Shown here piece by piece: positions 1 to 13,712 of a stretch of DNA of 20,000 bases. Positions within the stretch are counted from its first letter, which is position 1; every line of letters starts with the position of its first letter. Origin of the DNA: an uncultured virus (IMG/VR IMGVR_UViG_3300028833_000145) (taxonomy: Duplodnaviria; Heunggongvirae; Uroviricota; Caudoviricetes). Under the pieces are notes generated by a model. That model did no database searches. It was not told the origin of the DNA and saw only the letters and a list, made by a program, of their open reading frames with translations. A program made the translations under genes and the position numbers. The stretch lies in IMG/VR virus record IMGVR_UViG_3300028833_000145; one strand, written 5' to 3'.

Positions 1-22
1 CAAGTTCATGGAAGCTTGATCT

Positions 23-346
23 TCAGAACTGGACATCGGAGAGCTGAGGAGCTATCTCAAACACTTTGCTGACTTTTGTGATGTCAAACACTATCTTTGG
101 TCCAGGCTAGATGTGAGTCAAAACTACTCTTCTGCCATTTGACTTTGCTTTTTGGAGAATCTAGACTAGAGCACCGAGACCAGAAGAGTCGATGTGGTTC
201 ATCTAGCTGAGGTCAAACAAGACATCTGTCTCTGGTGTCATCTTGCTGAGAACTTCATCTCTGAACTCTGGTGCAAATCTAGCTACAAATCTTCCAGCTA
301 CAGAGACTATCATGAGATTTCCTTCCAAGTCTATCTTCCAGTTCAT
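23..346 (-). CDS. STAS-domain anti-sigma factor antagonist (RsbV/SpoIIAA-like), 107 aa, with three in-frame TAG codons (likely Gln)
   Basis: Manual translation: MNWKIDLEGNLMIVSVAGRFVARFAPEFRDEVLSKMTPETDVLFDLS*MNHIDSSGLGALV*ILQKAKSNGRRVVLTHI*PGPKIVFDITKVSKVFEIAPQLSDVQF then TGA. Has the STAS signature D-L-S-x-x-x-x-I-D-S-S-G-L-G and the C-terminal F-D-I-T motif. SD-like AGAGGA upstream. TAGs at 205-203, 163-161 and 109-107. Confidence 0.9.
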
Positions 347-374
347 TGTCTGAATTCCTCTATTCTTTTTAGAC

Positions 375-380
375 TACTTA
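375..380 (-). promoter_or_regulatory. Possible late-promoter variant (TAAGTA) upstream of the STAS gene
   Basis: One mismatch to the TAAATA core, about 30 nt upstream of the ATG. No TTGCCA/TATAAT promoter seen on this strand. Confidence 0.4.
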
Positions 381-432
381 CAGATGTGTTTGGTTGCCAA
401 GCTCATCTGCTTTTGATATAATTCTGCTTGTC

Positions 433-936
433 ATGAGCAAGAGCAGAAACCACAGAAATCGAGAGCTTGTTGAAGAGCTTGTCTCACTCGGCTACCAGTT
501 CTATCCAAGAAGCCATGGACTCTTCTATGAAGAGATGCAAGTCCAAGACAAGTTTGGAAACTCGCCAGAGCTGAAGTTTGCCTTGGACCGGAGGAAAAGA
601 ATCCAGCTTGGAATTCCTAGAGGTCGATCTCTTGGCTACACGATATACCCAACTGAGAAGCTCCAGAGAGTTCTTGACAAGCTTGAAGTCCGCACTGGGC
701 TGCTTGATCCATGCAAGCCTAATGTCAAGCTCTTCATGCCTCTGTCTAAGGTTGCAGTTCCGAGATCATGGTTCTCTGGAAGGTTCTCTCACTCAATGGA
801 GTTCAGCTCTAGGATTGGAGTGAGAAGCTGGCTCAGGAATGTGAAGCACTACTTGCTTGAGATGAATGATCCACTTGTCATCAATGCTGATCGTGCTTGG
901 ATTGAGAGTTGCCAAAAGACTAGCGGCTTGATATAA
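433..936 (+). CDS. hypothetical protein
   Basis: Start moved to ATG 433, just downstream of promoter 394-422. Its stop TAA lies inside the next promoter's -10. Confidence 0.75.
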   Translation: MSKSRNHRNRELVEELVSLGYQFYPRSHGLFYEEMQVQDKFGNSPELKFALDRRKRIQLGIPRGRSLGYTIYPTEKLQRVLDKLEVRTGLLDPCKPNVKLFMPLSKVAVPRSWFSGRFSHSMEFSSRIGVRSWLRNVKHYLLEMNDPLVINADRAWIESCQKTSGLI

Positions 937-975
937 TTCTGACTGTCAACCAACCACTAAGAAAGGAAACCAAAG

Positions 976-1251
976 ATGGACAACCTGAAGATTGAAGCCG
1001 CCGCCTCGAAGATCCAAAAGCTCATCACAAGCTCAGTCAGAGAAGGCAAGTGGTGCAGAAGCACTGTGGATGAGCAGCCGACTCGAGAGAACATTGAGAG
1101 GTCGATTGGGTGGGGACTTCTTGGAATCTATGACCGGTCTATGGCCAATGCGGTGATGGACATCGTCTATCCGAAGCTCCGCAAGAATGGAATCCTCGCC
1201 AAGCTTCGTGGTGAGGAGCCTGCTCATAATGCCACCGAGTCCTTTGGCTGA
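976..1251 (+). CDS. hypothetical protein, paralog of 14678..14932
   Basis: Promoter at 909 and SD GAAAGGA. Shares VMDIVYPKLRKNGILAKLR with the 14678 ORF. Confidence 0.85.
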   Translation: MDNLKIEAAASKIQKLITSSVREGKWCRSTVDEQPTRENIERSIGWGLLGIYDRSMANAVMDIVYPKLRKNGILAKLRGEEPAHNATESFG

Positions 1252-1310
1252 AGAGGAAGAGCTTGAGTGGCAGAGTTGCCATTGTCTTGAGAGTTTGATA
1301 TAATTGTCTT

Positions 1311-1492
1311 ACCAACTACAACAACAAGGAGAACCCTGCCATGAAGCGCCTGTACTAAGAAGATTTTCCTCGAGTGAGGGACAGGGATGTGAAAGCCTGT
1401 TTGCTGAAGGACATCCAAAGTTGAGAGATCCACAGAGCATCCTAGGCTCTACTCGTGGGTCTCTTGATTTCTTTGTGCTTTGGTTGTAGTTG
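1311..1492 (+). ncRNA. candidate structured non-coding RNA
   Basis: Own promoter (1276-1304) but only a 5-codon ORF after the SD. The 5' and 3' ends are complementary and there are several internal stems. Confidence 0.35.
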
Positions 1493-1557
1493 CCAAGTCC
1501 TAGCAGCTTTGATATAATTCCAAGTGTCAACTAACCACAAAGAAAAGGAGAATGCAA

Positions 1558-1764
1558 ATGCAGAAGTATAAAGTTGAGTGCATGGTAGGAAGCTATGGCA
1601 AAGGGCCCGTCAAAGAGTTTGAAGCCTCTAGTGATAATGAAGCATTTGAGATAGGCTGGAAGTTTGCAAAGCAGCAGATGAAGTGCATTGCATTTAGTGT
1701 GAGCAAGAAGGTAGGCCGCCGTAAAGTGTATATTGGGCCAGAAGAAAGCAAGAAAGCCGCTTGA
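1558..1764 (+). CDS. hypothetical protein
   Basis: Promoter at 1490 and SD AAGGAG. ATG 1558 has better spacing than 1552. Confidence 0.75.
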   Translation: MQKYKVECMVGSYGKGPVKEFEASSDNEAFEIGWKFAKQQMKCIAFSVSKKVGRRKVYIGPEESKKAA

Positions 1765-1836
1765 TGCAGAAGTTGCCAAGTTCATCCAGCTTTGATATAA
1801 TTCTGCCTGTAAACCACCAAGAAAGGAAACCAGCAA

Positions 1837-2364
1837 ATGAGCAAGATTGATGAGATGATTCGTGAAAACAGGCAAGAGTATGGAATTGATCTGCCTGAAG
1901 ATGAAGCTCGAGAGCTTGCTAAGCTGCAGCTGGAAGACCTCAAGCGGAAGGGCTGCACACTTGAGAACATTAGTGAGTGCCATGGGTGCTCAGCTACTAA
2001 GGATGGTTCTGAGTGTCCTCTGTGTGATTGGGAGAAACGCCATCCTGAATATGCCAATGATGAGCTTGCCAAGAGAATCAAAGCCCTTGAGAACAAATCT
2101 AGAGACAAGTTCAAAGCTGAGATGAAGTCCAAGGTCATTGGAGAGTTCAAGAAACTCAAGGTAGATGTTGACTTGACCGAGGCAGCTAGAGCACTTGAAA
2201 CCGCGGCTAGAGACATGATAGAAGCTGCTAGAGAATTTGAGGAAGTTGAAGGCCAAAACGATGAAGTCCAGCTCAAAGCTCTGGCTAAAGTCAATGAAGC
2301 TCTTGACAAGATCCGCCACAGCAAGCTTGGATTCTTCTTAGAGAGGACAAAGTGGTTTGCTTGA
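1837..2364 (+). CDS. hypothetical protein with Cys cluster and coiled coil; N-terminal half paralogous to 18077..18583
   Basis: Promoter at 1773 and SD GAAAGGA. C-x6-CxxC-x8-CxxC followed by WEKRHPEY. Confidence 0.85.
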   Translation: MSKIDEMIRENRQEYGIDLPEDEARELAKLQLEDLKRKGCTLENISECHGCSATKDGSECPLCDWEKRHPEYANDELAKRIKALENKSRDKFKAEMKSKVIGEFKKLKVDVDLTEAARALETAARDMIEAAREFEEVEGQNDEVQLKALAKVNEALDKIRHSKLGFFLERTKWFA

Positions 2365-2427
2365 GATTGCCACAGCCTCAGCCTTTTGATATGATTCTGC
2401 TTGCTAACTGAAAGAAATGACAAAGCT

Positions 2428-2562
2428 ATGGATAGTGACAAAATCAAGACGGCTTTCGACTATGTAGTCTTCATCATTCTTGTAGTTGCTATAGCATCTA
2501 TAGTTCCAATTGGGACATGCATTGCAATTTGGATGGTGTTAAAAGCTGCAGAGAATTACTGA
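2428..2562 (+). CDS. small membrane protein (44 aa)
   Basis: MDSDKIKTAFDYVVFIILVVAIASIVPIGTCIAIWMVLKAAENY, downstream of promoter 2367. Below the ORF-track size cutoff. Confidence 0.6.
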   Translation: MDSDKIKTAFDYVVFIILVVAIASIVPIGTCIAIWMVLKAAENY

Positions 2563-2635
2563 TTGGATTTGGATGTTGCCACAGCCTCAAGCTTTTGATA
2601 TAATTCTGGATGTCAACCACTCAAGGAAATCACCA

Positions 2636-2839
2636 ATGCCAGAGACCTGTATCTACAAACTTGACTACCAGCATCACTCAAGCTTTTCATTTGCTTGGGA
2701 TGAAATGCATGCAACTGAGATAGTTGAAGCACCCAAGAACATTGGCTTCAGAGAGCTTGAGACTCTATGCCATCAGAAGATTCCTGGATTCTGGGCTTTG
2801 AACAATTTCGAGGAAGTCTATATTCGGAAGCTTGTGTGA
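2636..2839 (+). CDS. hypothetical protein
   Basis: Promoter at 2576, SD AAGGA, ATG 2636. Confidence 0.75.
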   Translation: MPETCIYKLDYQHHSSFSFAWDEMHATEIVEAPKNIGFRELETLCHQKIPGFWALNNFEEVYIRKLV

Positions 2840-2862
2840 CCAACAAAGAGGAGAAACATCGT

Positions 2863-2954
2863 TGGTTGGGGAGCTGGGATTCGAACCCAGACCGACGGCT
2901 TCAGAGGCCAAAGGGTTTTAGAGACCCTCGTGCTAACCACTACACTACTCCCCA
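2863..2954 (-). tRNA. Amber suppressor tRNA (anticodon CUA), Gln-type acceptor stem, 92 nt, with a second CUG anticodon-like arm in the variable region
   Basis: TGGGGAG-TA-GTGTAGTGGTTAGCAC-G-AGGGT CTCTAAA ACCCT-TTGGC CTCTGAA GCCGT-CGGT-CTGGG TTCGAAT CCCAG-CTCCCCA-A-CCA. Perfect 7-bp acceptor stem, canonical T arm, encoded CCA. Confidence 0.92.
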
Positions 2955-2966
2955 ATCAGAGATTCA

Positions 2967-2974
2967 TATTTATA
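2967..2974 (-). promoter_or_regulatory. T4-type late promoter TATAAATA upstream of the suppressor tRNA
   Basis: Exact match to the T4 gp55 late consensus, 12 nt upstream of the tRNA 5' end. Confidence 0.7.
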
Positions 2975-3037
2975 TTTTATTGGAAGTGCTTAGAATCTTA
3001 GTTGCCAAAGTTGCTTTGCTTTGATATAATTCTGAGC

Positions 3038-3319
3038 ATGGAAAGCAACAACACAACCACTAAGATGAAGATTGTCCTTGCAAAGAAGCCTAGCAGCACT
3101 GAGTTCTGTGTCTGTGACTATAGCACCTTGAAAGTGCTTGATGTCTTTGATCTCAGCAAGCTCACTCTTCCACAATGCGTCAACATGCTCAAAGACCACT
3201 ATGAGATTGCTGGATTCCTCAGCCATGGAATGATCATTCCTCTAGTTGGCCTCATTCCTAGCCATGAAGACAAGCGAATCGAAGATGTGCATGAGCGCTT
3301 AGCTAAAGTTGCAGCTTGA
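3038..3319 (+). CDS. hypothetical protein (probably leaderless)
   Basis: ATG 7 nt after the -10 (3025-3030), no SD. Confidence 0.7.
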   Translation: MESNNTTTKMKIVLAKKPSSTEFCVCDYSTLKVLDVFDLSKLTLPQCVNMLKDHYEIAGFLSHGMIIPLVGLIPSHEDKRIEDVHERLAKVAA

Positions 3320-3341
3320 GAAAAAGAAGGAGATTGGAAAG

Positions 3342-3614
3342 ATGGCTAGAAATGACAAAGAGCAGCTCTTCGACTGCATGATCACTTGTGGTGAGCTTGA
3401 CCCTGAGTGGTATGGCCACTACAAGAAAGACACTGTCATCCGAGAAGTGGCTAAGCACAATGTCACTGCAGAGGAAGCTAAGGCATGGCATGGCTCAGCT
3501 GAGTGCATGAAGCGTGTGCAGGAGCTTGAGGACCTTGGACGAGAGAAGTTTGGCAAAGACCACTGGATGAAGTGGAGTGTGAGCTACTTCTGGACAACTG
3601 CAGCGAAAGATTAG
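3342..3614 (+). CDS. hypothetical protein
   Basis: SD AAGGAG and ATG 3342. Ends in TAG, followed by TCT TGA. Confidence 0.75.
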   Translation: MARNDKEQLFDCMITCGELDPEWYGHYKKDTVIREVAKHNVTAEEAKAWHGSAECMKRVQELEDLGREKFGKDHWMKWSVSYFWTTAAKD

Positions 3615-3685
3615 TCTTGAGGTTGCCACAGCCTCAGCCTTTTGATATAATTCTGAATGTCAATTGACCACTGAGGAGAGAACAA

Positions 3686-3862
3686 ATGCCATACCCATCT
3701 GACCTCGACAACTTCAAAGCTAAAGCTCATGCTGAGTCTATCAAGCTTGCGAATTCAGCTGGAAGCCAACTTCAACTCTTGATTGAAGAGCAGTTAGTTG
3801 CAGCTTATGTTGCTGGCTACAAGCAGTGCGAAGAAGACTATCCACATCGGACTATGGACTGA
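3686..3862 (+). CDS. hypothetical protein (58 aa)
   Basis: Promoter at 3623, SD GAGGAG. MPYPSDLDNFKAKAHAESIKL...DYPHRTMD. Confidence 0.7.
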   Translation: MPYPSDLDNFKAKAHAESIKLANSAGSQLQLLIEEQLVAAYVAGYKQCEEDYPHRTMD

Positions 3863-3894
3863 AGATCAGTGTAGCAATTGGTGAGGAGAAATAG

Positions 3895-4377
3895 ATGAGA
3901 AACTTCACTGCTAGCCAGACTCGTGAATATGAGAAGTCAAACTCACTTGACAGGATTCCTTGTCTAGAAGGTCTAGACACTGGCTGCAAGGCTGAGATCC
4001 TAGAAGGTGCTTCGGATGCAGTCTCTAGGACTAGAGTTGGCCAGAAGTTCATTGACTGTGTGTGCAAGAAGGCTGGAGTTCCTTCTGTCATGCTTTGGGT
4101 CAAAGATCAAAGCCAGCTTCATCGAGATGACAAAGCTCTTGGAACTCTGAAGCAGAAGACGCTTGGCCGCTATTGGCATGCTGGAAGCAATGGAAAGAAG
4201 ATTGAGATCTGGAATCTGACAGCCAAACGTGGGAAGGTTGTAGCAGCCAAGACATTCTGGAACACTCTCTGCCATGAGCTCTGCCATCACCTTGACTGTG
4301 CAAAGCTAGGACTGGCAAGTTCATTCCACTGTGCCGGATTCTACAAGCGAATCTCATTTCTTGAGTCCCTTGGATGA
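3895..4377 (+). CDS. putative zinc metalloprotease (zincin, SprT/YgjP-like)
   Basis: TLCHELCHH (HExxH) with a downstream H-x-x-x-F (FHCAGF). SD GAGGAG. Confidence 0.7.
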   Translation: MRNFTASQTREYEKSNSLDRIPCLEGLDTGCKAEILEGASDAVSRTRVGQKFIDCVCKKAGVPSVMLWVKDQSQLHRDDKALGTLKQKTLGRYWHAGSNGKKIEIWNLTAKRGKVVAAKTFWNTLCHELCHHLDCAKLGLASSFHCAGFYKRISFLESLG

Positions 4378-4454
4378 CTCGAGTGGTGATTCCAAGTTGC
4401 CAAGCTCAAGTGCATTTGATATAATTCCGGCATCAACCACTAAGGAGAAACCAA

Positions 4455-4607
4455 ATGAAAAACTATCTCACAACCTATCTCAATCCAAAAACTAACACCA
4501 CAGTCACAAAGACTTATTCTAACATCTCTCCAGAGACCCTCCAAAAGTACATCTCACTCTACACTTCGCTCTCTGGATTCCAGTTTGTGTCTTCTGCTGA
4601 AATCTGA
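4455..4607 (+). CDS. hypothetical protein (50 aa)
   Basis: Promoter at 4397, SD TAAGGAG. MKNYLTTYLNPKTNTTVTKTYSNISPETLQKYISLYTSLSGFQFVSSAEI. Confidence 0.7.
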   Translation: MKNYLTTYLNPKTNTTVTKTYSNISPETLQKYISLYTSLSGFQFVSSAEI

Positions 4608-4750
4608 TTCACACTGCCTATCTCACCTTTCCTTTCTAATCCTCAGTCTCTCTGGGGATTTTTCATTTCATCTTCTTGCATAGTTGCCAAGATTTCTATA
4701 GCTTGATATAATGACAACATAACCACCACAAAGTGAAAGGAAACAAACAA

Positions 4751-4996
4751 ATGAAGAAGCTCTTGATCCTGCCGATTCTTGCACTTGGTCTTGCTGGGTG
4801 TGGAAATCTTGACATGTTTGACACCAACTTCACTTACCACTATGCTTTGACAAAGTGGCCTGATGGGACAACAAAGAAGATTGAGATCAAGCAGTGGTGT
4901 GACTATGAAGGTGAGCAGATCCAGATCATCTCTCCAGATGGGAACATCTATCTGCTGTCAATGAACAACACTGTTCTTGTCCGTGAAGGAAAGTGA
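4751..4996 (+). CDS. small phage lipoprotein
   Basis: MKKLLILPILALGLAGC: signal peptide II with lipobox LAGC. Promoter at 4684, SD GAAAGGA. Confidence 0.85.
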   Translation: MKKLLILPILALGLAGCGNLDMFDTNFTYHYALTKWPDGTTKKIEIKQWCDYEGEQIQIISPDGNIYLLSMNNTVLVREGK

Positions 4997-4997
4997 C

Positions 4998-5138
4998 ATG
5001 GAGACAATCCAAATCTCTGGACAGTGGTATGCAATCCGCTGGGAAGATGACTCTAAGACAAAGTTCCAGATTGTTGCTGGACCATTTGCCGAAGAGCATT
5101 GGGCAAGAAGCATGGCTCGCTTGAATGAGCTTGACTGA
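4998..5138 (+). CDS. hypothetical protein (46 aa)
   Basis: Translationally coupled to the lipoprotein gene, SD GAAGGA. METIQISGQWYAIRWEDDSKTKFQIVAGPF... Confidence 0.65.
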   Translation: METIQISGQWYAIRWEDDSKTKFQIVAGPFAEEHWARSMARLNELD

Positions 5139-5158
5139 ATTCAGAAAGAGAGGAAACT

Positions 5159-5320
5159 ATGGAGACTTGGGAGATGCGTCAACGTCGCTTGAGAGCTGAA
5201 GCTAAGAGAGCAAAGATCAAGAGAGCAATTGGTGATGTCTTTGGCTCAGCAGCATTCTTTGGAATGCTATTTGTCTTCTGCTGGCTTTGCTGTGCAGCTA
5301 GCGGATATCATTGGGAGTGA
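5159..5320 (+). CDS. small membrane protein (53 aa)
   Basis: SD GAGGA. Basic N-terminus followed by hydrophobic VFGSAAFFGMLFVFCWLCCAA. Confidence 0.65.
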   Translation: METWEMRQRRLRAEAKRAKIKRAIGDVFGSAAFFGMLFVFCWLCCAASGYHWE

Positions 5321-5400
5321 GAATCAAAGTTGCCAAGTTGCAAGACTTTTGATATGATATAATGAGTGCACAACCAAATGGATGAAAGGAAATGATTTAG

Positions 5401-5715
5401 ATGAAAGCTGAAACAACTTTGACTGATGCTGAATGGGAAGAGAAGTTCAATAGCCCTCGCAACCAGCTTCTCAAAGAGATATTTGGTGACACTCCTTGCC
5501 AAGTGAAAGACATCTCACCTAAAGTGGTCATCAAAGATGAGAATTGGGACAGAGGAAATGACTTCATGGTGAATGGACGTCCTCGAATCCACAAGAACTC
5601 AAACTCTGATCTTTGCTCGGTTGCACGTTGGAATGACCAGATGCGATCAACTGGAAAGATTGTCAGCCAGATGAAAGATGAGCCAGCTGAAGTCTCTAAG
5701 CTGGAGAACCGATGA
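5401..5715 (+). CDS. hypothetical protein
   Basis: Promoter at 5330, SD GAAAGGA. Confidence 0.75.
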   Translation: MKAETTLTDAEWEEKFNSPRNQLLKEIFGDTPCQVKDISPKVVIKDENWDRGNDFMVNGRPRIHKNSNSDLCSVARWNDQMRSTGKIVSQMKDEPAEVSKLENR

Positions 5716-5953
5716 TTTGAGAGGTCACTCTCTCCAGAGAGGCAGAAGAAAGGAAGTTGATTTCATCCGAGCTGCAGGAAAGAAATGCAGCAAGTGGTTG
5801 GATGATGGTAGGAAGCATGAGAGTGGGTGGTTCCCTCTCTAGCCTGCGAAGCTATGGGTCTCCTTTCCCCTTTCCGTAGCAGGCTATGATTTTCTATAGA
5901 CAACTCAAGCTTTCTAGATTGCCTAAGTGATCTAGCTTGATATAATTCTTAGC

Positions 5954-6475
5954 GTGACAACCATGACAATGGATGAGTTGAGGTCTTTAGCAAGACGTGA
6001 TGAGATTCTCTCAAAAGAAGAATCTTTCTCCATGACCGTTGAAGATCTCTATTGGTACTCTCACTTCAGGAAGAAGTGGCTTGAGAAGCTGAATAGAGAA
6101 GAAACACCAAGCGAAGAAGACTTGCTCCCGGTCCTCAAGATTCTAGATGATGGATCTCTTGAAGTCAAGATCAAAGGCACTAGCAAGTACTACCATGTCA
6201 CTGCACATGCTGTCAAGCGATTCAAAGAGAGAACTGATGCACTTCAGCACCATGATCCTCTGAAGTATCTAGCTAAAGAGCTTCGAGATGCTATGCCTGC
6301 TAAGCTTGCTAATGCTAAAGGGCAAGTTCTGGCCCTTCTCAACCACAACTTAGAGCATGCCAGATACATGCTTGGACGACGAACTAAGGTCATTTGGGTT
6401 CTCGTTGGAGATGTTGTCAAGACCTGCCACATGAATGAGAGCAAGAGGTATGTTGCCATAGTTGAGAAGTCTTGA
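5954..6475 (+). CDS. hypothetical protein
   Basis: Promoter at 5919. GTG 7 nt after the -10 (alternative ATG 5963). Contains T-x-H-A-x-x-R-x-x-E-R, a motif I recall from small phage proteins. Confidence 0.8.
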   Translation: MTTMTMDELRSLARRDEILSKEESFSMTVEDLYWYSHFRKKWLEKLNREETPSEEDLLPVLKILDDGSLEVKIKGTSKYYHVTAHAVKRFKERTDALQHHDPLKYLAKELRDAMPAKLANAKGQVLALLNHNLEHARYMLGRRTKVIWVLVGDVVKTCHMNESKRYVAIVEKS

Positions 6476-6491
6476 TATAATTCTGCTTGCT

Positions 6492-6806
6492 ATGAAGATT
6501 GAAGTTCTGCCAAACAACTTGAACGAGAAGACTCGTGGACAACATGTCAAGGAAGAGAAGTTGAGAAGCATTCTCAGTGAATCCATCCAGAAGATTGTTG
6601 TCAACAAGTGTGTCAATGGTGCTGAAGCTGATTCAACAATGAACAGTCTCATGACTTTGATCATGGCTTGCCAGATGCTCTGGAATGAGCTTGAAGATGT
6701 GAAAGAAGAGCTTGCTAAAGCTAGAGCTGATGTTGATGATGCCTTTGAGCGTGGCTACAACACTGGAAGTCTTGAGACGGAGCATTCAATGCAAGAGAAT
6801 GCTTGA
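6492..6806 (+). CDS. hypothetical coiled-coil protein
   Basis: ATG 10 nt after the -10 of promoter 6453. Confidence 0.75.
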   Translation: MKIEVLPNNLNEKTRGQHVKEEKLRSILSESIQKIVVNKCVNGAEADSTMNSLMTLIMACQMLWNELEDVKEELAKARADVDDAFERGYNTGSLETEHSMQENA

Positions 6807-6910
6807 GTGGCTTGGTTGCCAAAGCTTGATAGCTTTGATATAATTCCAAGTGTTCCGAGAACTAAACCAACTCGAAACAAAAAACCAAACCACAAACGAA
6901 AGGAAATCAA

Positions 6911-7399
6911 ATGAAATACATCCACACAACCGCTTCAACCACCTACACAACCAAAGGTTGGAAGAAATCCAAGGATGGTTCGCTCTACAAGCCTTGCAAA
7001 GATTCTAAAGCCGCTTACCAAAAAGAAATTGACCAAACTCTCTTCTCAAAGAAAGTCAAGGTCGAAGATCTTCCTCAAGCCACTTGGTTCCTCGGAGGCT
7101 GCGACTGTCCTAATGACTTGATCAAGCACAAAATCTCAGACATCATCTATCGCTTGGTCCGGATACTCGAAGAAAACCAGAAGCTTGAGTCTCAGAACAA
7201 GAAAGCTACAGTCAACATCAACTGGCTCGAAGAAGCAAAAGATAATCTCGAGAAAGTTCTTGGAATTGCAATTCTCTACAATCGCTACAACACCACCTAT
7301 GGCGATTTCTTCTCTGGCTCGGATCGCGACTCAAAGCTTATCTCTAAGCTCAAAACCGAATTAGTCGACTCACTCAAACGCTATGGCTTAAAGGTCTAA
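6911..7399 (+). CDS. hypothetical protein
   Basis: Promoter at 6816, long A/C-rich leader, SD GAAAGGA. Confidence 0.85.
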   Translation: MKYIHTTASTTYTTKGWKKSKDGSLYKPCKDSKAAYQKEIDQTLFSKKVKVEDLPQATWFLGGCDCPNDLIKHKISDIIYRLVRILEENQKLESQNKKATVNINWLEEAKDNLEKVLGIAILYNRYNTTYGDFFSGSDRDSKLISKLKTELVDSLKRYGLKV

Positions 7400-7421
7400 G
7401 CCAATCATTCATATAAATCCG

Positions 7422-7453
7422 AAATCCCTAGGTCTCAACCACCTAGGGATTTT
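7422..7453. terminator. bidirectional intrinsic terminator
   Basis: AAATCCCTAGGT-7nt-ACCTAGGGATTT perfect 12-bp stem between convergent genes. Confidence 0.75.
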
Positions 7454-7482
7454 CAGCAGCCTCAAGCTTTCAGCTGTGGTTC

Positions 7483-8004
7483 TCAGCTATCTTTCTTATC
7501 TTCTTTGTCTTCCTTGACAGCCTCATACTTGATGAAGTTCTCTTTTCTGAAAGAGCGAAATCCCTTAGCCTCAAGATCCCAGTAGACGATTATTGTTGGT
7601 GGGACGAAGTGCTTCTTCTTGCCATCCTCAACTTTCTTGTCAGTAGCCTTAGCTCCATCCATCAGGTCGGCCTTCAGAGTTCCGACAGCCTCACGTGTTG
7701 AGCCATCAACTTTCTTGAAAGAGAACTTGACCTTGCCAGCTTTCAGAGCCTCAAGAAACTTCTTCTCTACAGCCTCAGACATTGACTCATTCATTCTGCT
7801 GTCAAGATACACATTGTCCTCAACTTCATATCCTCTCTCTTCTGCAAAGTCTCGCATCTCTTCACCAAACTTCTCAGGATCTTGCATTGAGCTGTGCTTT
7901 GAGAGAAACTCTTCAGTCATCTTCTTGAGCTCTGGATCTTTTCCGCTGTACTTAGGACCTTCTTTCAGGCCATCCCACACAATTGAGCACACTTTTCTTG
8001 CCAT
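7483..8004 (-). CDS. WYL_2/Sm-like SH3 beta-barrel domain protein (T4 gp61.1/DUF2693-like C-terminal domain)
   Basis: F-K-K-V-D-G-S-T-R-E-A-V-G-T-L ... Y-W-D-L-E-A-K-G-F-R-S-F-R pattern. Confidence 0.75.
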   Translation of the reverse strand: MARKVCSIVWDGLKEGPKYSGKDPELKKMTEEFLSKHSSMQDPEKFGEEMRDFAEERGYEVEDNVYLDSRMNESMSEAVEKKFLEALKAGKVKFSFKKVDGSTREAVGTLKADLMDGAKATDKKVEDGKKKHFVPPTIIVYWDLEAKGFRSFRKENFIKYEAVKEDKEDKKDS

Positions 8005-8031
8005 ATCTTAGTCTTTCATTGTTGTTTCTGT

Positions 8032-8037
8032 TATTTA
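8032..8037 (-). promoter_or_regulatory. late promoter core TAAATA
   Basis: 27 nt upstream of the minus-strand ATG at 8004. No sigma70 repeat on this strand. Confidence 0.5.
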
Positions 8038-8090
8038 CCCCTAGAGTCTAGTTGCCAAGGCCACTTGCTCTTGATAGAATATCTAGCATC

Positions 8091-8357
8091 ATGAGTCGCT
8101 CTTATCGAAAGTACAAAGGCTTGAACCACACTTGGTCTGATACAAAGCAAGGCAAAGCCATCAAGAAGATCTCGCATCGCCAGATTCGAGCCAAAGCTAA
8201 AGCATCAGAAGATGGAGTTGAGCTTGCAAAGAAGTGTGCTCGAGGAAACCGCTATGATGGCAAGTCCTTCTCCGAATCTGACTATGAATACATGGCTTCC
8301 AAGAGATCTCATGGCTACTCTCCAAAGCGGGTCAAGCATAGGCTTCTAGGGAAGTGA
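8091..8357 (+). CDS. small basic hypothetical protein
   Basis: ATG 10 nt after the TAGAAT of promoter 8052. MSRSYRK start, K/R-rich. Confidence 0.75.
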   Translation: MSRSYRKYKGLNHTWSDTKQGKAIKKISHRQIRAKAKASEDGVELAKKCARGNRYDGKSFSESDYEYMASKRSHGYSPKRVKHRLLGK

Positions 8358-8412
8358 TTGCCAAATTCTTAGGTTTTTGATATAATGTTAGCTGAAAGGA
8401 CAACAAAGACCT

Positions 8413-9120
8413 ATGGCTAGATTTTGGACAAGTGATTTCCATCTGAACAGCACAGCAATCATCCAATATGCTGGGCGGCCTTTCAAGTCTGGGATGAAGA
8501 TGGCCGAAGCTTATGTGCGGTCTTGCAACCAGCAAGCTAGAGATCCTAATGACATGATAATCCATGTTGGTGACTTCTACTTGAAAGGCAAGGATCGCCA
8601 TGGCATTGGTGATGAAGGTCTCAAGATTCCTGCCAAGGAGTGGCTGAGCAAGATAAATGCTCAGGTGTTTCTGATTGAAGGAAACCATGATGACTCTAAC
8701 ATTGGCCACACCCATGCCAAGCAGCTGATTCTTGACCTTGGACCTTTCAAGAACACTTCAGTGTCACATTATCCTTCTACTGACAAGGGAACTTGGACAT
8801 TGAAAGGCTTTGACAAGGAGCATCTCCACATCCATCTCTGTGGTCATGTCCATGAGAAGTGGAAATGGAAGCTTGATCTCCAAGACAAGTTTGTGCTGAA
8901 CATCAATGTTGGTGTTGACCAGTGGAAGCAGCAGATAGTGTCAGAGAAGAAGTTGATTGGCTATATCAGTTCACTTCTCCACTCTCAGGAGCTCAGAGAT
9001 CAGCTCTATCCTGAAGCTGCAGCTCTTGCTAAGAGCATGGCTCCGTGTCTGCCTAGCAAATGGGGTGATGATCCTGCTGAGATGACCTGGACTCCTGGCG
9101 AGCCAAGTGAGAAGTGGTGA
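8413..9120 (+). CDS. calcineurin-like metallophosphoesterase
   Basis: Motifs SDFH, VGD, GNHD, SHYP, GHVH and NVGVD. Confidence 0.9.
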   Translation: MARFWTSDFHLNSTAIIQYAGRPFKSGMKMAEAYVRSCNQQARDPNDMIIHVGDFYLKGKDRHGIGDEGLKIPAKEWLSKINAQVFLIEGNHDDSNIGHTHAKQLILDLGPFKNTSVSHYPSTDKGTWTLKGFDKEHLHIHLCGHVHEKWKWKLDLQDKFVLNINVGVDQWKQQIVSEKKLIGYISSLLHSQELRDQLYPEAAALAKSMAPCLPSKWGDDPAEMTWTPGEPSEKW

Positions 9121-9181
9121 TAGGTTGCCAAGACCTCATTGCTTTGATATAATTCTGTGCGTAAATAGGAGATGAACAGCT

Positions 9182-10519
9182 ATGAACACACTATTTGCAA
9201 AGCACATACTTTCAGTTCCTACCATCTCTGGCAAGGAAGATTTCTTCATTGACTGCATCAAGAAGTGGTGCAAGATTGTAGGAATTCGAGTAGATCAAGA
9301 TGGCAAAGGAAACCTCTACTTGAGAAAAGGTGACTGTGATGGCAAGGATTGGGTTCCTTGTCTTTGCTCTCATCTTGACACTGTCCACAGAAAGTATCTT
9401 CCTTACATCCAGAGAAAAGAGCTTCTTCCAGTCCAGATTGATGGAGATCGTCTCTTCATCAATGGCATGGGAATTGGTGCTGACTGCAAAGCTGGTGTGG
9501 CAATCTGCCTCAGTGTCATGAGAAAAGTCAAGAGGTGCAAGTGTGCACTCTTTGTTGAGGAAGAGACCGGCATGCAGGGTTCCAGAGCTCTTGACAAGTC
9601 ATTCTTTGACAATGTCAGTTATGTTCTCTCTTGGGACTCTCCAGGTGGAAACCGTGCTACAAAGACTTCTTCTGGTGTTCCAATGTTCACTGATGAATTC
9701 TTCAAGATCATCGAGCCTATCTACAAAGGCCATGGTGTGACCAACTGGAAGCATGAGCCATTCACAGACACGGTGCAGATCGTCAAGCAGCTTGGAATCT
9801 GCTGTGTGAACTGCAAGAATGGTGGAGGAATGAATGCTCACACCGACAAAGAAGATGCTAGCATATCTGAGATGAATGACTCTGAGCAGCTCTGTTTGGA
9901 TGCATTAGACAAGATTCCTTGTGACAGGAAGTGGGAGATCAAGTATGAAGAGCCGAAGTGGGAGCCTTCTAAGTGGCACAACACGGGCAAGAGCTATGGC
10001 AGCAAGCTGAGCCATGAGCCGGATCTTGACAATGATGATGAAGACTTTGGAAGCTATGTAGATGAGCTCTTTGGACTAGATGGTGAAGACTCATGGGAGA
10101 ACCATGATGACACAGAGATGTGCCAGTTTGAGTTCACCTATGATGATGAAGATCAGTTCAAGTTGCACAAAGAGCTGTGTGAGCAAGAAGATTTGCCAGT
10201 TACATTCACTGGATTCAGCGAAGTTCGTGGAACTGCTACAGCTGAAGGTGAGCTTCAAAGCATAAAAGATGCTTATGTCTTGTGGTATCAGATCTTCTAT
10301 GATGACCCATCAGTCAAGACTTGGGAGCGGCTTGAAGCTATGGATGACCTCACAGAGTTCAGTGATGGCATCATCTTTCTAGAGGGCTTAGAAGACATTG
10401 AGAGTGTAGATGATGTCCGACCAGAAGATCTTGATGATGATGAAGAGGATGAAAAAGAAGAAAAAGAGAAGAATCCTCAGCAGATGGACCTGTTTGACTG
10501 GATAGATGGACAAAAGTGA
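9182..10519 (+). CDS. M20/M28-like zinc peptidase with long acidic C-terminal extension
   Basis: SHLDTVH, GADCKAG, EEETG, SWD and AHTDKE metal-ligand pattern. The C-terminal ~170 aa are very D/E-rich. Confidence 0.85.
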   Translation: MNTLFAKHILSVPTISGKEDFFIDCIKKWCKIVGIRVDQDGKGNLYLRKGDCDGKDWVPCLCSHLDTVHRKYLPYIQRKELLPVQIDGDRLFINGMGIGADCKAGVAICLSVMRKVKRCKCALFVEEETGMQGSRALDKSFFDNVSYVLSWDSPGGNRATKTSSGVPMFTDEFFKIIEPIYKGHGVTNWKHEPFTDTVQIVKQLGICCVNCKNGGGMNAHTDKEDASISEMNDSEQLCLDALDKIPCDRKWEIKYEEPKWEPSKWHNTGKSYGSKLSHEPDLDNDDEDFGSYVDELFGLDGEDSWENHDDTEMCQFEFTYDDEDQFKLHKELCEQEDLPVTFTGFSEVRGTATAEGELQSIKDAYVLWYQIFYDDPSVKTWERLEAMDDLTEFSDGIIFLEGLEDIESVDDVRPEDLDDDEEDEKEEKEKNPQQMDLFDWIDGQK

Positions 10520-10585
10520 CATGATTGCCAAATCTTCTTTGATTTGATATAATTGCTTCACCAACAACTAATTGAAAGGATTGTC

Positions 10586-10837
10586 ATGGCAAAATCTACT
10601 TTGACTCCTAAGTCTTTGATGACTTATGCTGACACATTCAAGATGCTTTCCAAGAGACTTGAAGAGATTGCTAATGTTGCAAAGAAGCAAAGAACTCGTG
10701 TTGACAAAGTGAGGGTTGAAGATCCAGATGGTCCAGAAGGTTTTGGTGAGACACTTGAAGAGATCAAAGGGACATTTGACAGTGTAAGTGAAGATTTCTC
10801 TGAAGGCATCTATTGGACAGTCAATTGCCAATGCTGA
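10586..10837 (+). CDS. hypothetical protein
   Basis: Promoter at 10525, SD GAAAGGA, ATG 10586. Confidence 0.75.
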   Translation: MAKSTLTPKSLMTYADTFKMLSKRLEEIANVAKKQRTRVDKVRVEDPDGPEGFGETLEEIKGTFDSVSEDFSEGIYWTVNCQC

Positions 10838-10892
10838 CAAGTCTTGATATAATTGTCTCATCAACAAACCACTAAGTGAAAGGAAATTGACA

Positions 10893-11084
10893 ATGCCACA
10901 AACACAAGCTCAATTGAATGCATGCATGTCAATTGCCCACCAGTTGCCAGCTATTGCAAAGCAGCTGAGGATTGCAAACCAGCTCAAGGCGCTCGAGCTC
11001 AAGCGAGCAGCTGATCCATCGGTGAAAGCACCGTATGAGTGGACTGCAGAGATTGATCGAATCATTGCTGACCAAAAAGGATGA
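10893..11084 (+). CDS. hypothetical protein
   Basis: Promoter at 10825, SD GAAAGGA. Confidence 0.75.
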   Translation: MPQTQAQLNACMSIAHQLPAIAKQLRIANQLKALELKRAADPSVKAPYEWTAEIDRIIADQKG

Positions 11085-11091
11085 GACAACT

Positions 11092-11565
11092 ATGGAGAAG
11101 AAAATGACATTTGATGATCTCAAGAAAGAGAGCTACCTCTTAGTATTCATGTTGAATCATGAAGCTTCTGACTTAGATCCTTTCATGATCCAAGTAAGTG
11201 GATTGAACTTCATCCAGTATGGAGGAACCAAGAATACTAGCTCTCTTCGGACAATGCTCCAGACTCTGAAGAGGAAGAACTTTGTCATCAATGTGTTTCC
11301 TGGAGCGTGGATGTTGACAAAGCAGGGAAAGAAAGAAGCTGAATACTGGCAGAAGAAGTGTGGACAAGAGCCGGTCAAGCATGTTTCTCTTGTTGAGAAG
11401 GACGCAGTTGAAGCCAGTCTTGAAGACCAGCTTGAGAAAGCTAGAGTAGAGCTTCAGATGGCTAAGCACACAAATGAATACTTGGATGAGCAGGTCCAGA
11501 TTCTCAGAGAAGAGAACTCTAAGCTCAAAGAGAAGATTGCTCTCGTCCAAAAAGTCATATCCTGA
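11092..11565 (+). CDS. hypothetical protein, possible winged helix plus coiled coil
   Basis: SD AAGGA. L-x-x-L-x-x-K-x-F-V...W-x-L-T-x-x-G resembles a wHTH wing. C-terminal heptads. Confidence 0.7.
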   Translation: MEKKMTFDDLKKESYLLVFMLNHEASDLDPFMIQVSGLNFIQYGGTKNTSSLRTMLQTLKRKNFVINVFPGAWMLTKQGKKEAEYWQKKCGQEPVKHVSLVEKDAVEASLEDQLEKARVELQMAKHTNEYLDEQVQILREENSKLKEKIALVQKVIS

Positions 11566-11588
11566 GATTTTTGACTAGTTAGTGAGCC

Positions 11589-11635
11589 AGAGCTAGCCTC
11601 TACGCGAAAAGCGGAATTCTGAGGCTGGCTCTTTT
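11589..11635 (+). terminator. probable intrinsic terminator
   Basis: AGAGCTAGCCTC ... GAGGCTGGCTCT followed by TTT. Confidence 0.55.
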
Positions 11636-11670
11636 AGCAGTGAGAGCCTAGACAGCCTCAAGCTTCCTAG

Positions 11671-11676
11671 TAAATA
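11671..11676 (+). promoter_or_regulatory. late promoter core TAAATA
   Basis: 30 nt upstream of the TAG-containing ORF 11707, directly after a terminator. Confidence 0.5.
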
Positions 11677-11706
11677 ATTCTCATTGAAGGATGATATAGA
11701 CAAGAC

Positions 11707-11931
11707 ATGCAGATAAAGCTTGAGTATTCTAATGTTCTCAAAGATGGGAAATTTGAGTTCACCGGAGAAGTTGAGACTGTTGCTGATGCCGTCAAATAGG
11801 TTGTAGAGTCATTTGATGAGAAGTTCAATCCAGCTAATCTTGACTTTGAGCATGTATATGCAGATGGAGTTGACTTAGGAATAGATGGTCTCTACCAGGC
11901 TGAGATTGCTTTGAAAGAATACTATATCTAA
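11707..11931 (+). CDS. hypothetical acidic protein (74 aa) with one in-frame TAG
   Basis: MQIKLEYSNVLKDGKFEFTGEVETVADAVK*VVESFDEKFNPANLDFEHVYADGVDLGIDGLYQAEIALKEYYI then TAA. TAG at 11797-11799. Fills an otherwise empty gap. Confidence 0.7.
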
Positions 11932-12016
11932 GCTAAACATAAAAATTTGATAGTTTTTGGATGCAGGTTGCCAAAATCTGCATTTTTTGTTATTATTGAC
12001 AAGATAGGTGAACACT

Positions 12017-12636: not shown

Positions 12637-12644
12637 CAAGTGCT

Positions 12645-12947: not shown

Positions 12948-12990
12948 TATAATTCTAGATGTCAACAATCACTAAGAGAGGAAGAAAGAA

Positions 12991-13707: not shown

Positions 13708-13712
13708 CAAGG

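What the first reader, a model, noticed from the sequence alone, without database searches (positions are those of the whole stretch)
23..346. Hidden phage anti-anti-sigma (STAS) gene with three in-frame TAG codons
Seen: a complete 107-codon STAS protein, invisible in the standard-code track, with an intact DSSGLG motif. Three TAGs fall at positions that are usually polar and variable in STAS proteins (DLS*M, ALV*I, THI*P), and there are no frameshifts or internal TAA/TGA. Known: STAS proteins such as RsbV and SpoIIAA bind anti-sigma kinases and release alternative sigma factors, regulated through the Ser in D-S-S/T-G. Inference: TAG is a sense codon here (probably Gln, code 15; 3 of 6 Gln codons would be TAG). 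A sigma-regulating protein would then be translatable only once suppression is active, a possible link between code switch and transcription switch.
Basis: partly seen in the sequence, partly recalled or inferred. Interest (0 to 1): 0.85.

Follow-up and report, generated by a model that had tools for sequence, protein, structure and literature searches.

The report
Phage STAS gene read through TAG
A large rumen phage carries a working copy of a bacterial signalling gene whose three TAG "stop" codons are read as glutamine by the phage's own tRNA, a known kind of phage code change with an unusual cargo gene.

Summary
On the minus strand, 346..23 is a 107-codon STAS gene (Pfam E 7e-18) with three in-frame TAGs and no other stop.

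TAG here means glutamine, and the gene is not a pseudogene:
- Two TAGs sit in columns that are Gln in 19 of 19 and 17 of 18 homologs.
- A 92%-identical relative has CAG at one of the sites.
- Codons after the first TAG show 13 synonymous against 2 non-synonymous changes (dN/dS 0.04).
- A tRNA(CUA) lies 2.5 kb away, with the acceptor end of the host lineage's tRNA-Gln and an extra hairpin showing a Gln anticodon loop.
- A second gene (11707..11931) has a TAG where its three closest relatives have Gln.

The "sigma switch" idea is not supported. The gene is a lone, reverse-oriented cassette in an array of early genes with 28 near-identical promoters, and it is absent from a co-occurring variant. 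No kinase, phosphatase or sigma gene lies beside it.

Its closest relatives (55-66%) are in rumen Kiritimatiellia MAGs. There the gene sits in a polysaccharide locus with a REC-PP2C-kinase protein, a SypA/HsbA-type arrangement.

This is a new member of a known kind: a code-15 phage.

The parts
23..346 (-). STAS (anti-sigma-antagonist family) gene, 107 codons plus TGA stop. In-frame TAG at codons 48, 62 and 80. Conserved D-S-S-G-L-G at residues 53-58.
203..205 (-). TAG codon 48. The family column is variable: Q 4, R 7, K 7, G 1 of 19. It is Q in relative P0026 and TAG in L113.
161..163 (-). TAG codon 62. The column is Gln in 19 of 19 homologs. The codon is CAG in relative L113 and in 12 of 12 host genes.
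107..109 (-). TAG codon 80. The column is Gln in 17 of 18 homologs (R once). It is TAG in L113, the protein call of P0026 ends just before it, and it is CAG in 12 of 12 host genes.
347..393 (-). Upstream region of the STAS gene, with a Shine-Dalgarno-like AGAGGA about 10 nt before the ATG. No copy of the early-promoter consensus faces this way. The promoter is unresolved.
21..412 (.). Segment (STAS gene plus its upstream region) that is replaced by 18 nt in a co-occurring variant. The variant junction reads as a complete early promoter placed directly after the upstream gene's stop.
   Evidence: table 5c: run X1 at depth 4.9 and RNA-library run X24.
2..19 (+). 3' end (..KFMEA, TGA at 17-19) of a convergent + strand gene. 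Only 3 nt separate the two stop codons.
   Evidence: L113 1642-2178, 178 aa.
2863..2954 (-). tRNA with anticodon CUA (amber suppressor), 92 nt with encoded CCA. It has U1-A72, G2-C71, G3-C70 and A73. The 21-nt extra arm UGGC-CUCUGAA-GCCG has a 7-nt loop that equals the true anticodon loop CUCUAAA except for G at position 36, so it shows the Gln anticodon CUG.
11707..11931 (+). Second gene with an in-frame TAG (codon 31, 11797-11799). It has 74 codons, unknown function and no early promoter, and lies between two hairpin-plus-U-run sites.
394..422 (+). First of 28 near-identical promoters (TTGCCAA-N14-TTTGATATAAT) that head the small + strand genes. None of those genes needs TAG read-through.

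Best explanation
Shown: 346..23 (minus strand) is an intact gene under purifying selection. It encodes a single-domain STAS protein of the anti-sigma-antagonist family, on a large phage-like element from ruminant gut, and its three TAG codons stand where glutamine belongs.

Strongly inferred: the TAGs are decoded as Gln by the element's own tRNA(CUA) at 2954..2863. That tRNA has the U1-A72 / A73 acceptor end found only in the tRNA-Gln genes of the probable host lineage. It also carries an extra hairpin that displays a Gln (CUG) anticodon loop, a feature shared with amber suppressors of known TAG-to-Gln phages. Full-length protein can therefore be made only in cells where the phage suppressor is active, the code-15 'late translation' logic described by Borges and colleagues.

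Inferred, less sure: the gene was captured long ago from a Kiritimatiellia-type host. There its homolog is the STAS partner of a REC-PP2C-Ser-kinase protein inside a surface-polysaccharide gene cluster (SypA/SypE and HsbA/HsbR type). The phage copy would then act as a mimic or decoy in that host partner-switch, altering polysaccharide, biofilm or stress signalling during infection, rather than driving a phage sigma switch.
For: Family membership:
- Pfam STAS E 7.2e-18 and TIGR00377 above its cut-off.
- Sequence matches to solved structures: TM1442, SpoIIAA, RsbV.

TAG = Gln:
- In alignment A1 the column of TAG62 is Q in 19 of 19 homologs, and that of TAG80 is Q in 17 of 18.
- 12 of 12 host genes have CAG at both sites.
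- Relative L113 (92% nt identity) has TAG, CAG, TAG at the three sites.
- P0026 (89% aa identity) has Q, Q and then ends before site 3.

Not a pseudogene:
- Window against L113, codons 49-107: 13 synonymous and 2 non-synonymous differences, dN/dS 0.037, binomial p 3.9e-7.
- Codons 81-107: 6 synonymous and 0 non-synonymous.
- The only indel is 3 nt, in frame.
- Run X3 holds a third variant whose listed differences in the gene are 4 synonymous plus A99V and K35R (the list was truncated).

Suppressor tRNA:
- tRNA(CUA), 62.4 bits.
- Among 37 distinct tRNAs of host-lineage MAG G003, only the two tRNA-Gln have U1-A72 with A73.
- The extra-arm loop is CUCUGAA against the anticodon loop CUCUAAA.
- The same 13-mer, GGCCUCUGAAGCC, occurs in the tRNA(CUA) of crAss-like phage cr113_1, and CUCUGAA occurs in a Phass-1 tRNA-Sup-CTA.
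- In an IMG/VR sample, 26 of 37 distinct long tRNA(CUA) have a Gln-anticodon-like heptamer, 19 of them closed by 3 bp; shuffles give 0.16.

Second gene: the TAG at codon 31 of 11707..11931 aligns with Q in the 3 closest of 20 homologs and with A in the other 17.

Long residence in the phage: the gene is 43% GC, against a mean of 60% for 12 host genes and 44.6% for the window.

Host context: REC-PP2C-HATPase_c_2, sugar transferases, STAS, hybrid histidine kinase and GT4/WecG in 4 of 4 loci. By tblastn the REC-PP2C-kinase protein is in 39 of 80 loci and the hybrid kinase in 48 of 80, many with cut flanks.

Literature: TAG-to-Gln phages keep early genes in the standard code and carry suppressor tRNAs (passages of 10.1101/2021.08.26.457843; PMC10607447).
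Against: - No whole genome is held, so genome-wide recoding (structural and lysis genes, release factors, GlnRS) could not be checked.
- In the window only 2 genes carry in-frame TAGs (4 codons in all). Making TAG sense raises coverage by ORFs of 80 aa or more from 0.84 to 0.94, no more than TAA (0.94) or TGA (0.99).
- 5 of 45 + strand ORFs end in TAG, so TAG also works as a stop here, at least early.
- CAG-to-TAG is also the commonest route to a nonsense mutation, so the Gln columns alone would not exclude decay. The selection test carries that argument.
- No transcription or protein evidence exists for the gene. The one RNA-library run laid holds the variant without the cassette.
- Timing of tRNA and STAS expression is unknown, and no promoter was identified for either.
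- The tRNA's long extra arm is atypical for tRNA-Gln and could in principle attract another synthetase.
- The functional reading rests only on homology and host gene context. The phage itself has no partner gene in view. Two distant relatives (G001, G002) have no STAS, and G001 is not recoded.
Confidence: 0.75

Rival explanations
1. The gene is a decaying, host-derived pseudogene. The three TAGs are ordinary CAG-to-TAG nonsense mutations and only a 47-residue stub, if anything, is made.
For: C-to-T at CAG is the easiest path to TAG. The gene is an accessory cassette missing from a co-occurring variant. TAG ends 5 of 45 other ORFs in the window. There is no expression evidence.
Against: Downstream of the first TAG there are 13 synonymous against 2 non-synonymous differences from L113 (dN/dS 0.037, p 3.9e-7), and 6 against 0 after the last TAG. 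The only indel is in frame. Two TAGs are shared by diverged relatives, and one toggles TAG/CAG. There is no TAA, TGA or frameshift in three alleles. A cognate tRNA(CUA) lies 2.5 kb away.
Confidence: 0.04
2. TAG is translated, but as another amino acid such as Ser, Leu or Tyr (the tRNA has a long extra arm like class II tRNAs), or as pyrrolysine.
For: The tRNA(CUA) has a 21-nt variable region, and ARAGORN labels any CUA anticodon 'Pyl'. A few long tRNA(CUA) in IMG/VR do look Ser- or Leu-like.
Against: Gln fills the aligned columns (19 of 19; 17 of 18), and CAG replaces TAG in a close relative. The closest relatives of the second gene have Q. The acceptor end matches only the host-lineage tRNA-Gln, and the D-arm is close to host tRNA-Gln(CUG). 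The extra arm is a 3-4 bp hairpin with a 7-nt Gln-anticodon-like loop, not a class II arm. No Pyl genes appear among the window's Pfam hits.
Confidence: 0.06
3. One reading: the STAS protein is an anti-anti-sigma factor that frees an alternative (host or phage) sigma factor, so that the code switch triggers the phage's transcription switch.
For: It belongs to the anti-sigma-antagonist family and keeps the conserved Ser motif. HsbA-type STAS proteins can act on sigma regulation (abstract of PMC6482189 in the listing). The + strand genes all use one sigma-70-like promoter type, which the TAG-bearing genes lack.
Against: No sigma, anti-sigma, kinase or phosphatase gene is in the window or in the flank seen in L113. 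The host homologs sit in a polysaccharide cluster, as SypA does, and SypA's output is not known to be a sigma factor. The cassette is dispensable in a co-occurring variant, which does not fit a core developmental switch. The distant relatives G001 and G002 lack any STAS.
Confidence: 0.12

Closest known systems
TAG-to-Gln (code 15) recoded phages with their own tRNA-Sup(CUA): crAss-like, Lak, Phass-1 and others (Borges et al. preprint 10.1101/2021.08.26.457843; PMC9523058; PMC10607447)
   Same: In-frame TAG stands at Gln positions. There is a phage tRNA(CUA). The early genes are compatible with the standard code, and the TAG pattern differs between close relatives. The window's tRNA hits Phass-1, cr113_1 and Lak suppressor tRNAs by blastn and shares the extra-arm motif with two of them.
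   Different: Here the recoded genes seen are small accessory genes inside an early-gene array, not structural or lysis genes. The probable host lineage (Kiritimatiellia) does not occur in the text of the Borges preprint or of PMC13037316 (0 occurrences). No close relative exists in GenBank phages or IMG/VR.
SypA / SypE of the Vibrio fischeri syp polysaccharide locus (PMC4517449, passages read)
   Same: A single-domain STAS protein with a conserved phosphorylatable Ser, controlled by a response-regulator protein that carries both a Ser-kinase and a PP2C phosphatase domain. It is encoded inside a polysaccharide locus alongside a hybrid sensor kinase and glycosyltransferases. The Kiritimatiellia homologs of the phage gene have this context.
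   Different: No sequence comparison with SypA was made here. The host protein's domain order is REC-PP2C-kinase. The phage copy has none of the partners beside it.
HsbA / HsbR (HptB pathway) of Pseudomonas (listing and abstracts only: PMC6482189, PMC5085249)
   Same: The REC-PP2C-HATPase_c_2 architecture of the partner protein, as I recall HsbR's domain order, and a small STAS antagonist that switches partners.
   Different: HsbA acts on flagellar and RpoS regulation and on a diguanylate cyclase. No such genes were seen near the host homologs in the 4 loci annotated.
SpoIIAA / RsbV / TM1442 anti-sigma-factor antagonists (PDB 1th8, 6m36, 1sbo)
   Same: The same fold family by sequence (E 1.7e-10 to 2e-5), and the D-S-S-G motif is aligned.
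   Different: Those genes lie in operons with their anti-sigma kinase and sigma factor. This one stands alone on a phage and is interrupted by TAG.
T4 AsiA and other phage factors that redirect host sigma (mentioned in PMC7824862, passage read)
   Same: A phage protein aimed at host regulatory machinery.
   Different: The fold and mechanism are unrelated. No STAS protein is mentioned among jumbo-phage hijacking factors in that review: its only 'stas' match is the word 'stasis' in a reference title.

Membership tests
STAS-domain anti-sigma-factor antagonist (PF01740 / TIGR00377) | Full-length match to the family profile above the curated cut-off | tested here: met
   PF01740 64.7 bits against 22.6, profile positions 6-105 of 106. 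TIGR00377 55.1 against 53.45 bits. PDB sequence hits TM1442, SpoIIAA, RsbV.
STAS-domain anti-sigma-factor antagonist (PF01740 / TIGR00377) | Conserved phosphorylatable Ser in the D-S-S/T-G motif (which Ser is the target is recalled, not tested) | tested here: met
   H-I-D-S-S-G-L-G at residues 51-58 is invariant across 20 aligned sequences and aligned to the same motif of TM1442 and SpoIIAA.
STAS-domain anti-sigma-factor antagonist (PF01740 / TIGR00377) | Cognate Ser-kinase/anti-sigma or PP2C partner encoded nearby | tested here: not met
   No HATPase_c_2, SpoIIE or sigma domain in 137 ORFs of the window or in L113's flank. Host homologs do have a REC-PP2C-HATPase_c_2 gene 3-5 kb away.
STAS-domain anti-sigma-factor antagonist (PF01740 / TIGR00377) | Binds an anti-sigma kinase and releases a sigma factor | not testable with these tools
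   No binding or phosphorylation assay is possible. A complex prediction was not run (see Tried and rejected).
Code-15 (TAG to Gln) recoded phage | In-frame TAG in conserved genes aligned to Gln in homologs | tested here: met
   For 4 of 4 in-frame TAGs, at least one relative of 82% identity or more has Gln in the column. Two columns are nearly invariant Gln family-wide.
Code-15 (TAG to Gln) recoded phage | Sequence downstream of TAG under protein-level selection | tested here: met
   dN/dS 0.037 for codons 49-107; 6 synonymous and 0 non-synonymous differences after the last TAG.
Code-15 (TAG to Gln) recoded phage | Phage-encoded suppressor tRNA with anticodon CUA and Gln-type identity | tested here: met
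   tRNA(CUA) at 2954..2863. U1-A72 with A73 as only the host-lineage tRNA-Gln have. Similar to Phass-1, cr113_1 and Lak suppressors. Actual charging was not tested.
Code-15 (TAG to Gln) recoded phage | Genome-wide gain of coding density and repair of fragmented late genes under code 15 | not testable with these tools
   No genome is held. Within the window there is no TAG-specific gain.
Bacteriophage (large or 'jumbo') | Phage hallmark genes or clear phage relatives | tested here: inconclusive
   6 of 47 ORFs hit PHROGs, none of them a structural gene. The 445-aa peptidase has 33-39% relatives on IMG/VR contigs of 317 and 222 kb and 27-31% relatives in GenBank phages. There are two tRNAs and a dense array of small genes with repeated promoters. 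No capsid or terminase is in the window.

The most novel reading that the evidence does not exclude
A phage of Kiritimatiellia uses its TAG-to-Gln code switch as a lock on a captured host signalling protein. The STAS decoy is made only once the phage suppressor tRNA is active, and it then overrides the host's SypA/HsbA-type partner-switch that controls surface polysaccharide. The suppressor itself obtains glutamine identity from a spare hairpin that shows the synthetase a normal CUG anticodon loop. That trick appears in many unrelated TAG-recoded phages, and I did not find it described in the papers I searched.
Probability: 0.3. Interest if true: 0.8.

Novelty: new member of a known kind. Interest (0 to 1): 0.55.

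Why it matters
**Genes hidden from standard annotation.** Standard-code gene calling misses real, selected phage genes. Here it hides a host-derived regulator that no phage library holds: there is no PHROG family for it and no tblastn match in 50,697 GenBank phage records.

**A likely new host phylum.** The case points TAG-to-Gln recoding towards a phage whose probable hosts are Kiritimatiellia. That phylum has few known phages and is not mentioned in the recoding papers I searched.

**A short, testable case of selection after recoding.** Three alleles of one gene differ in which Gln codons are TAG, while the protein stays under purifying selection.

**The extra arm on the suppressor tRNA.** If the extra arm that imitates a Gln anticodon loop is what gives the tRNA glutamine identity, it would explain how host synthetases that read the anticodon can charge a stop-codon reader. 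That would be useful for understanding code change and for engineering orthogonal suppressors.

Tried and rejected
**Wrong strand first.** Translating the + strand of 23-346 gave nonsense. The gene is on the minus strand.

**The window's own genome and close relatives**
- No genome is held for the window.
- Megablast of 1-8000 against GenBank phages: no match.
- An exact 39-mer of the gene and a 23-mer of the tRNA in IMG/VR: no match.
- The STAS protein in IMG/VR: 7 pattern hits, none confirmed.
- The family of the second TAG gene in IMG/VR: 83 pattern hits, none confirmed.

**Distant relatives G001 and G002** (33-39% identity in one protein)
- Neither has a STAS match.
- G001 is 32% GC and gains nothing specific from TAG-as-sense (0.841 to 0.870), so it says nothing about this phage.
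- Its tRNA(CUA) and long tRNAs did not align usefully with the window's tRNA.

**Coding density in the window.** Comparing genetic codes was not discriminating.

**Promoter search.** I looked for a shared promoter motif upstream of the three minus-strand features and of ORF 11707. Only weak sigma-70-like matches turned up, and nothing convincing.

**A flawed metric.** My global-identity ranking of the tRNA against host tRNAs was biased by length, and I discarded it.

**Laid sequencing runs**
- The RNA-library run X24 covers only 2-20 and 413-642, in the form without the cassette, plus a short piece near 2360-2399.
- There is no cover of the STAS gene or of the tRNA, which is no evidence either way.

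**Complex prediction not run.** I did not predict the phage STAS with a host kinase domain. The pair is a textbook one and the host protein would be a stand-in, so a pass would not have changed my odds.

**Earlier notes of this scan.** There were none for this genome or for these sequences.
Full report
**1. The observation**

The reverse strand of window 23-346 reads as an ATG, 106 further codons and a TGA stop. It contains exactly three internal stops, all TAG, at codons 48, 62 and 80 (+ strand 203-205, 161-163, 107-109). Read with TAG=Q, the product matches Pfam STAS almost end to end: profile positions 6-105 of 106, E 7.2e-18, 64.7 bits against a cut-off of 22.6. It also passes NCBIfam TIGR00377, "anti-sigma factor antagonist", at 55.1 against 53.45 bits. 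By sequence it matches the solved antagonists TM1442, SpoIIAA and RsbV. The H-I-D-S-S-G-L-G block is intact. Three of the six Gln codons are TAG. Logan's independent assembly of the probable source sample covers 1-442 without a difference.

**2. Is TAG a sense codon, and which one?**

A search of 5.8 billion proteins gave 706 hits. The best full-length ones are 60-67% identical and 107-108 residues long.

In an alignment of the query with 19 of these hits (A1):
- The column of TAG62 is Gln in 19 of 19.
- The column of TAG80 is Gln in 17 of 18, with one Arg.
- The column of TAG48 is variable: Q 4, R 7, K 7, G 1.
- In 12 of 12 host-lineage genes, codons 62 and 80 are CAG.

Two closer relatives settle the matter:
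- Metagenome contig L113 is 92% identical in DNA over the gene. It has TAG, CAG, TAG at the three sites and an in-frame 3-nt insertion.
- Protein P0026 (89% identical) has Q at sites 1 and 2, and its gene call ends exactly before site 3.

The alleles therefore differ in which Gln codons are TAG.

The comparison of the window with L113 gives the selection test:

| Region | Synonymous | Non-synonymous | dN/dS |
|---|---|---|---|
| Whole gene | 14 | 9 | 0.16 |
| Codons 49-107 (after the first TAG) | 13 | 2 | 0.037 (binomial p 3.9e-7) |
| Codons 81-107 (after the last TAG) | 6 | 0 | - |

A reading frame that ended at codon 48 would not be conserved like this. In the N-terminal 47 codons the ratio is not low (1 synonymous, 7 non-synonymous). 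This region is also the variable end of the family.

A third variant, in run X3, shows 4 synonymous changes plus A99V and K35R among its listed differences. That list was truncated, so I cannot say what X3 has at the TAG sites.

**3. The decoder**

ARAGORN and Rfam find a tRNA with anticodon CUA at 2954..2863, on the same strand as the STAS gene and 2.5 kb away (62.4 bits). It has U1-A72, G2-C71, G3-C70, discriminator A73 and an encoded CCA.

In a MAG of the probable host lineage (G003), 37 distinct tRNAs were called in the fetched loci. Only tRNA-Gln(CUG) and tRNA-Gln(UUG) combine U1-A72 with A73; tRNA-Asn has U1-A72 with G73. The D-arm is also close to that of host tRNA-Gln(CUG).

The tRNA has an odd 21-nt extra arm. 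Two earlier notes of this scan, on other genomes, claimed that such arms show a glutamine anticodon, so I tested that claim here:
- The arm is UGGC-CUCUGAA-GCCG. Its 7-nt loop equals the true anticodon loop CUCUAAA except for G in place of A at the third anticodon position, so it displays CUG.
- The cloverleaf with this hairpin lies 1.2 kcal/mol above the minimum free energy.
- Blastn of the tRNA against GenBank phages hits the tRNA-Sup-CTA of Phass-1, the 91-nt "tRNA-Gln" of crAss-like phage cr113_1, and Lak phages (14 records).
- cr113_1 carries the identical 13-mer GGCCUCUGAAGCC. One Phass-1 suppressor carries CUCUGAA in a different stem. The other Phass-1 suppressor and the Lak-A1 one have no extra arm.
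- In IMG/VR, 48 contigs hold the strict pattern. They give 24 distinct long tRNA(CUA) sequences with many different acceptor stems and covarying arm stems (CC/GG, GC/GC, GGC/GCC, CAC/GUG, ACC/GGU).
It gave 87 distinct tRNA(CUA), of which 37 are 84 nt or longer.
- Of those 37, 26 have an N-U-(C/U)UG-R-N heptamer in the extra region, and 19 of them are closed by 3 base pairs. Shuffles give 0.16.

That the arm supplies glutamine identity is an inference. That it is there, is widespread and is shaped like a Gln anticodon loop is shown.

**4. A second recoded gene, and the setting**

The + strand carries about 45 small ORFs. They tile the window without any need for TAG read-through, and their stops are TGA 31, TAA 9 and TAG 5. 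Twenty-eight of them are headed by a near-identical promoter, TTGCCAA-N14-TTTGATATAAT; only one weaker match lies on the minus strand. This looks like an early-gene array.

In a 440-nt gap of that array, between two hairpin-plus-U sites and without the early promoter, lies a 74-codon ORF (11707..11931) with one TAG at codon 31. It has 20 homologs of 74-75 residues. The three closest (82-93% identical) have Q at that column, and the other 17 have A.

So for all four in-frame TAGs in the window, at least one close relative has Gln in the aligned column.

Within the window, coding density does not discriminate between codes. The rest of the genome is not held.

**5. The cassette**

L113 shows that a 178-residue + strand gene ends at window 17-19, three bases from the STAS stop. 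The next + strand promoter starts 48 bases upstream of the STAS start.

The STAS gene is therefore a single reverse-oriented gene inside the early array. The tRNA(CUA) and a WYL_2-domain gene (8004..7483, no TAG) are likewise reverse-oriented. No kinase, phosphatase, anti-sigma or sigma domain is found in 137 ORFs of the window or in L113.

Run X1 (depth 4.9, against 11 for the window's form) and the RNA-library run X24 hold a variant in which 21..412 is replaced by 18 bases. Those bases complete a perfect early promoter right after the upstream gene's stop (table 5c). The cassette is thus present or absent among co-occurring relatives.

Its GC content is 43%, matching the element (44.6%) and not the host genes (mean 60% in 12 loci). 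It is neither a recent capture nor a chimeric assembly.

**6. What the protein probably does**

The best matches in species-representative genomes (98 relatives, 80 kept) that cover the whole protein, at 55-66% identity, are mostly MAGs from ruminant gut. Their titles name Kiritimatiellae or Kiritimatiellia, "Verrucomicrobia", Lentisphaerae or Victivallales, or they are unnamed rumen MAGs. Lentisphaeria and Victivallales follow at 41-54%. The runs that hold the window are labelled sheep gut (probable source), with small, unlaid shares in bovine and goat gut runs.

In 4 of 4 host loci annotated, the gene order is as follows:
- a REC-PP2C(SpoIIE)-HATPase_c_2 protein;
- a Bac_transf sugar transferase;
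- a hexapeptide transferase;
- an unknown gene;
- the STAS gene;
- a hybrid histidine kinase (SBP_bac_3-HisKA-HATPase_c-REC);
- a GT4/WecG glycosyltransferase.

By tblastn the REC-PP2C-kinase protein is present in 39 of 80 loci and the hybrid kinase in 48 of 80. Many loci have cut flanks.

This is the layout of SypA/SypE in the Vibrio fischeri syp polysaccharide locus. There SypE phosphorylates or dephosphorylates a conserved Ser of the STAS protein SypA, and unphosphorylated SypA promotes biofilm through an unknown partner (passages of PMC4517449). The partner's domain order is that of Pseudomonas HsbR, which I recall rather than tested (listing).

I therefore read the phage protein as a mimic of the host's STAS partner that plugs into this switch. 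This step is inferred from homology and context only.

**7. Comparison with what is known, and verdict**

TAG-to-Gln recoding in phages is established. It comes with standard-code early genes, phage suppressor tRNAs, and TAG patterns that differ between relatives. I read passages of the Borges preprint and of the Phass-1 paper, and I saw the abstract of PMC9523058 in a listing. Passages of PMC13037316 report that 8.75% of rumen jumbo phages use alternative codes. The finding is a new member of that kind.

Three things are new here:
- **The cargo.** There is no STAS family in PHROGs at E 1e-4 and no tblastn match in 50,697 GenBank phage records. My two literature searches for phage STAS proteins listed none.
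- **The probable host phylum.**
- **The clear selection signal across three alleles.**

The Gln-anticodon-like arm of the suppressor is the most interesting by-product. I did not find it in the two papers I text-searched or in two literature listings. That is not proof that it is unpublished.

Noticed in passing
window 2863-2954 (-); L217 142-232, L218 127-217; L220-L383: The extra arm of the amber suppressor tRNA is a small hairpin whose 7-nt loop (CUCUGAA) copies the anticodon loop but shows the Gln anticodon CUG. The same motif is in the suppressors of crAss-like phage cr113_1 and of Phass-1. In an IMG/VR sample, 26 of 37 distinct long tRNA(CUA) carry it or the UUG form, and the arm stems covary.
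   Followed up: yes
window 394-18595 (+), 28 sites, for example 394-422, 909-937, 1276-1304: There are 28 near-identical promoters (TTGCCAA-N14-TTTGATATAAT, extended -10), each ahead of a small gene, all on the + strand. The density and uniformity of this early-gene array are striking. Read on the other strand, the -35 box is TTGGCAA, itself close to the -35 consensus. All three reverse-oriented features (STAS, tRNA-CUA, WYL_2 gene) start 45-55 nt beyond such a box.
   Followed up: partly
window 16425-16509 (+): tRNA-Arg(UCU) of 85 nt also has an extra arm (GGG-AUUU-CCC), although Arg tRNAs are normally short-armed. The distant relative G001 likewise has long Gln(CUG), Met and Trp tRNAs of 86-90 nt.
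   Followed up: no
window 7483-8004 (-): A reverse-oriented 173-residue gene with a WYL_2 domain (E 7.7e-18; phrog_1086), without any TAG. It is followed by a strong hairpin.
   Followed up: no
window 3612-3614, 12634-12636, 13938-13940, 15478-15480 (+): Four plausible early genes end in TAG. Once the suppressor is active they would be extended by 2, 64, 13 and 25 residues. In two of them the TAG lies inside the next gene's promoter -10 box (TGATAGAAT or TGTTAGAAT).
   Followed up: partly
window 17154-17954 (+): A 266-residue Cys-rich protein with an N-terminal hydrophobic signal-like segment and no family match. It may be a secreted or surface protein.
   Followed up: no
L005 787-1157 (G001): The 317-kb IMG/VR phage G001 encodes a tmRNA (tag peptide ending ..YAMAA), about 32 tRNAs and a tRNA(CUA), yet shows no gain from reading TAG as sense.
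   Followed up: partly
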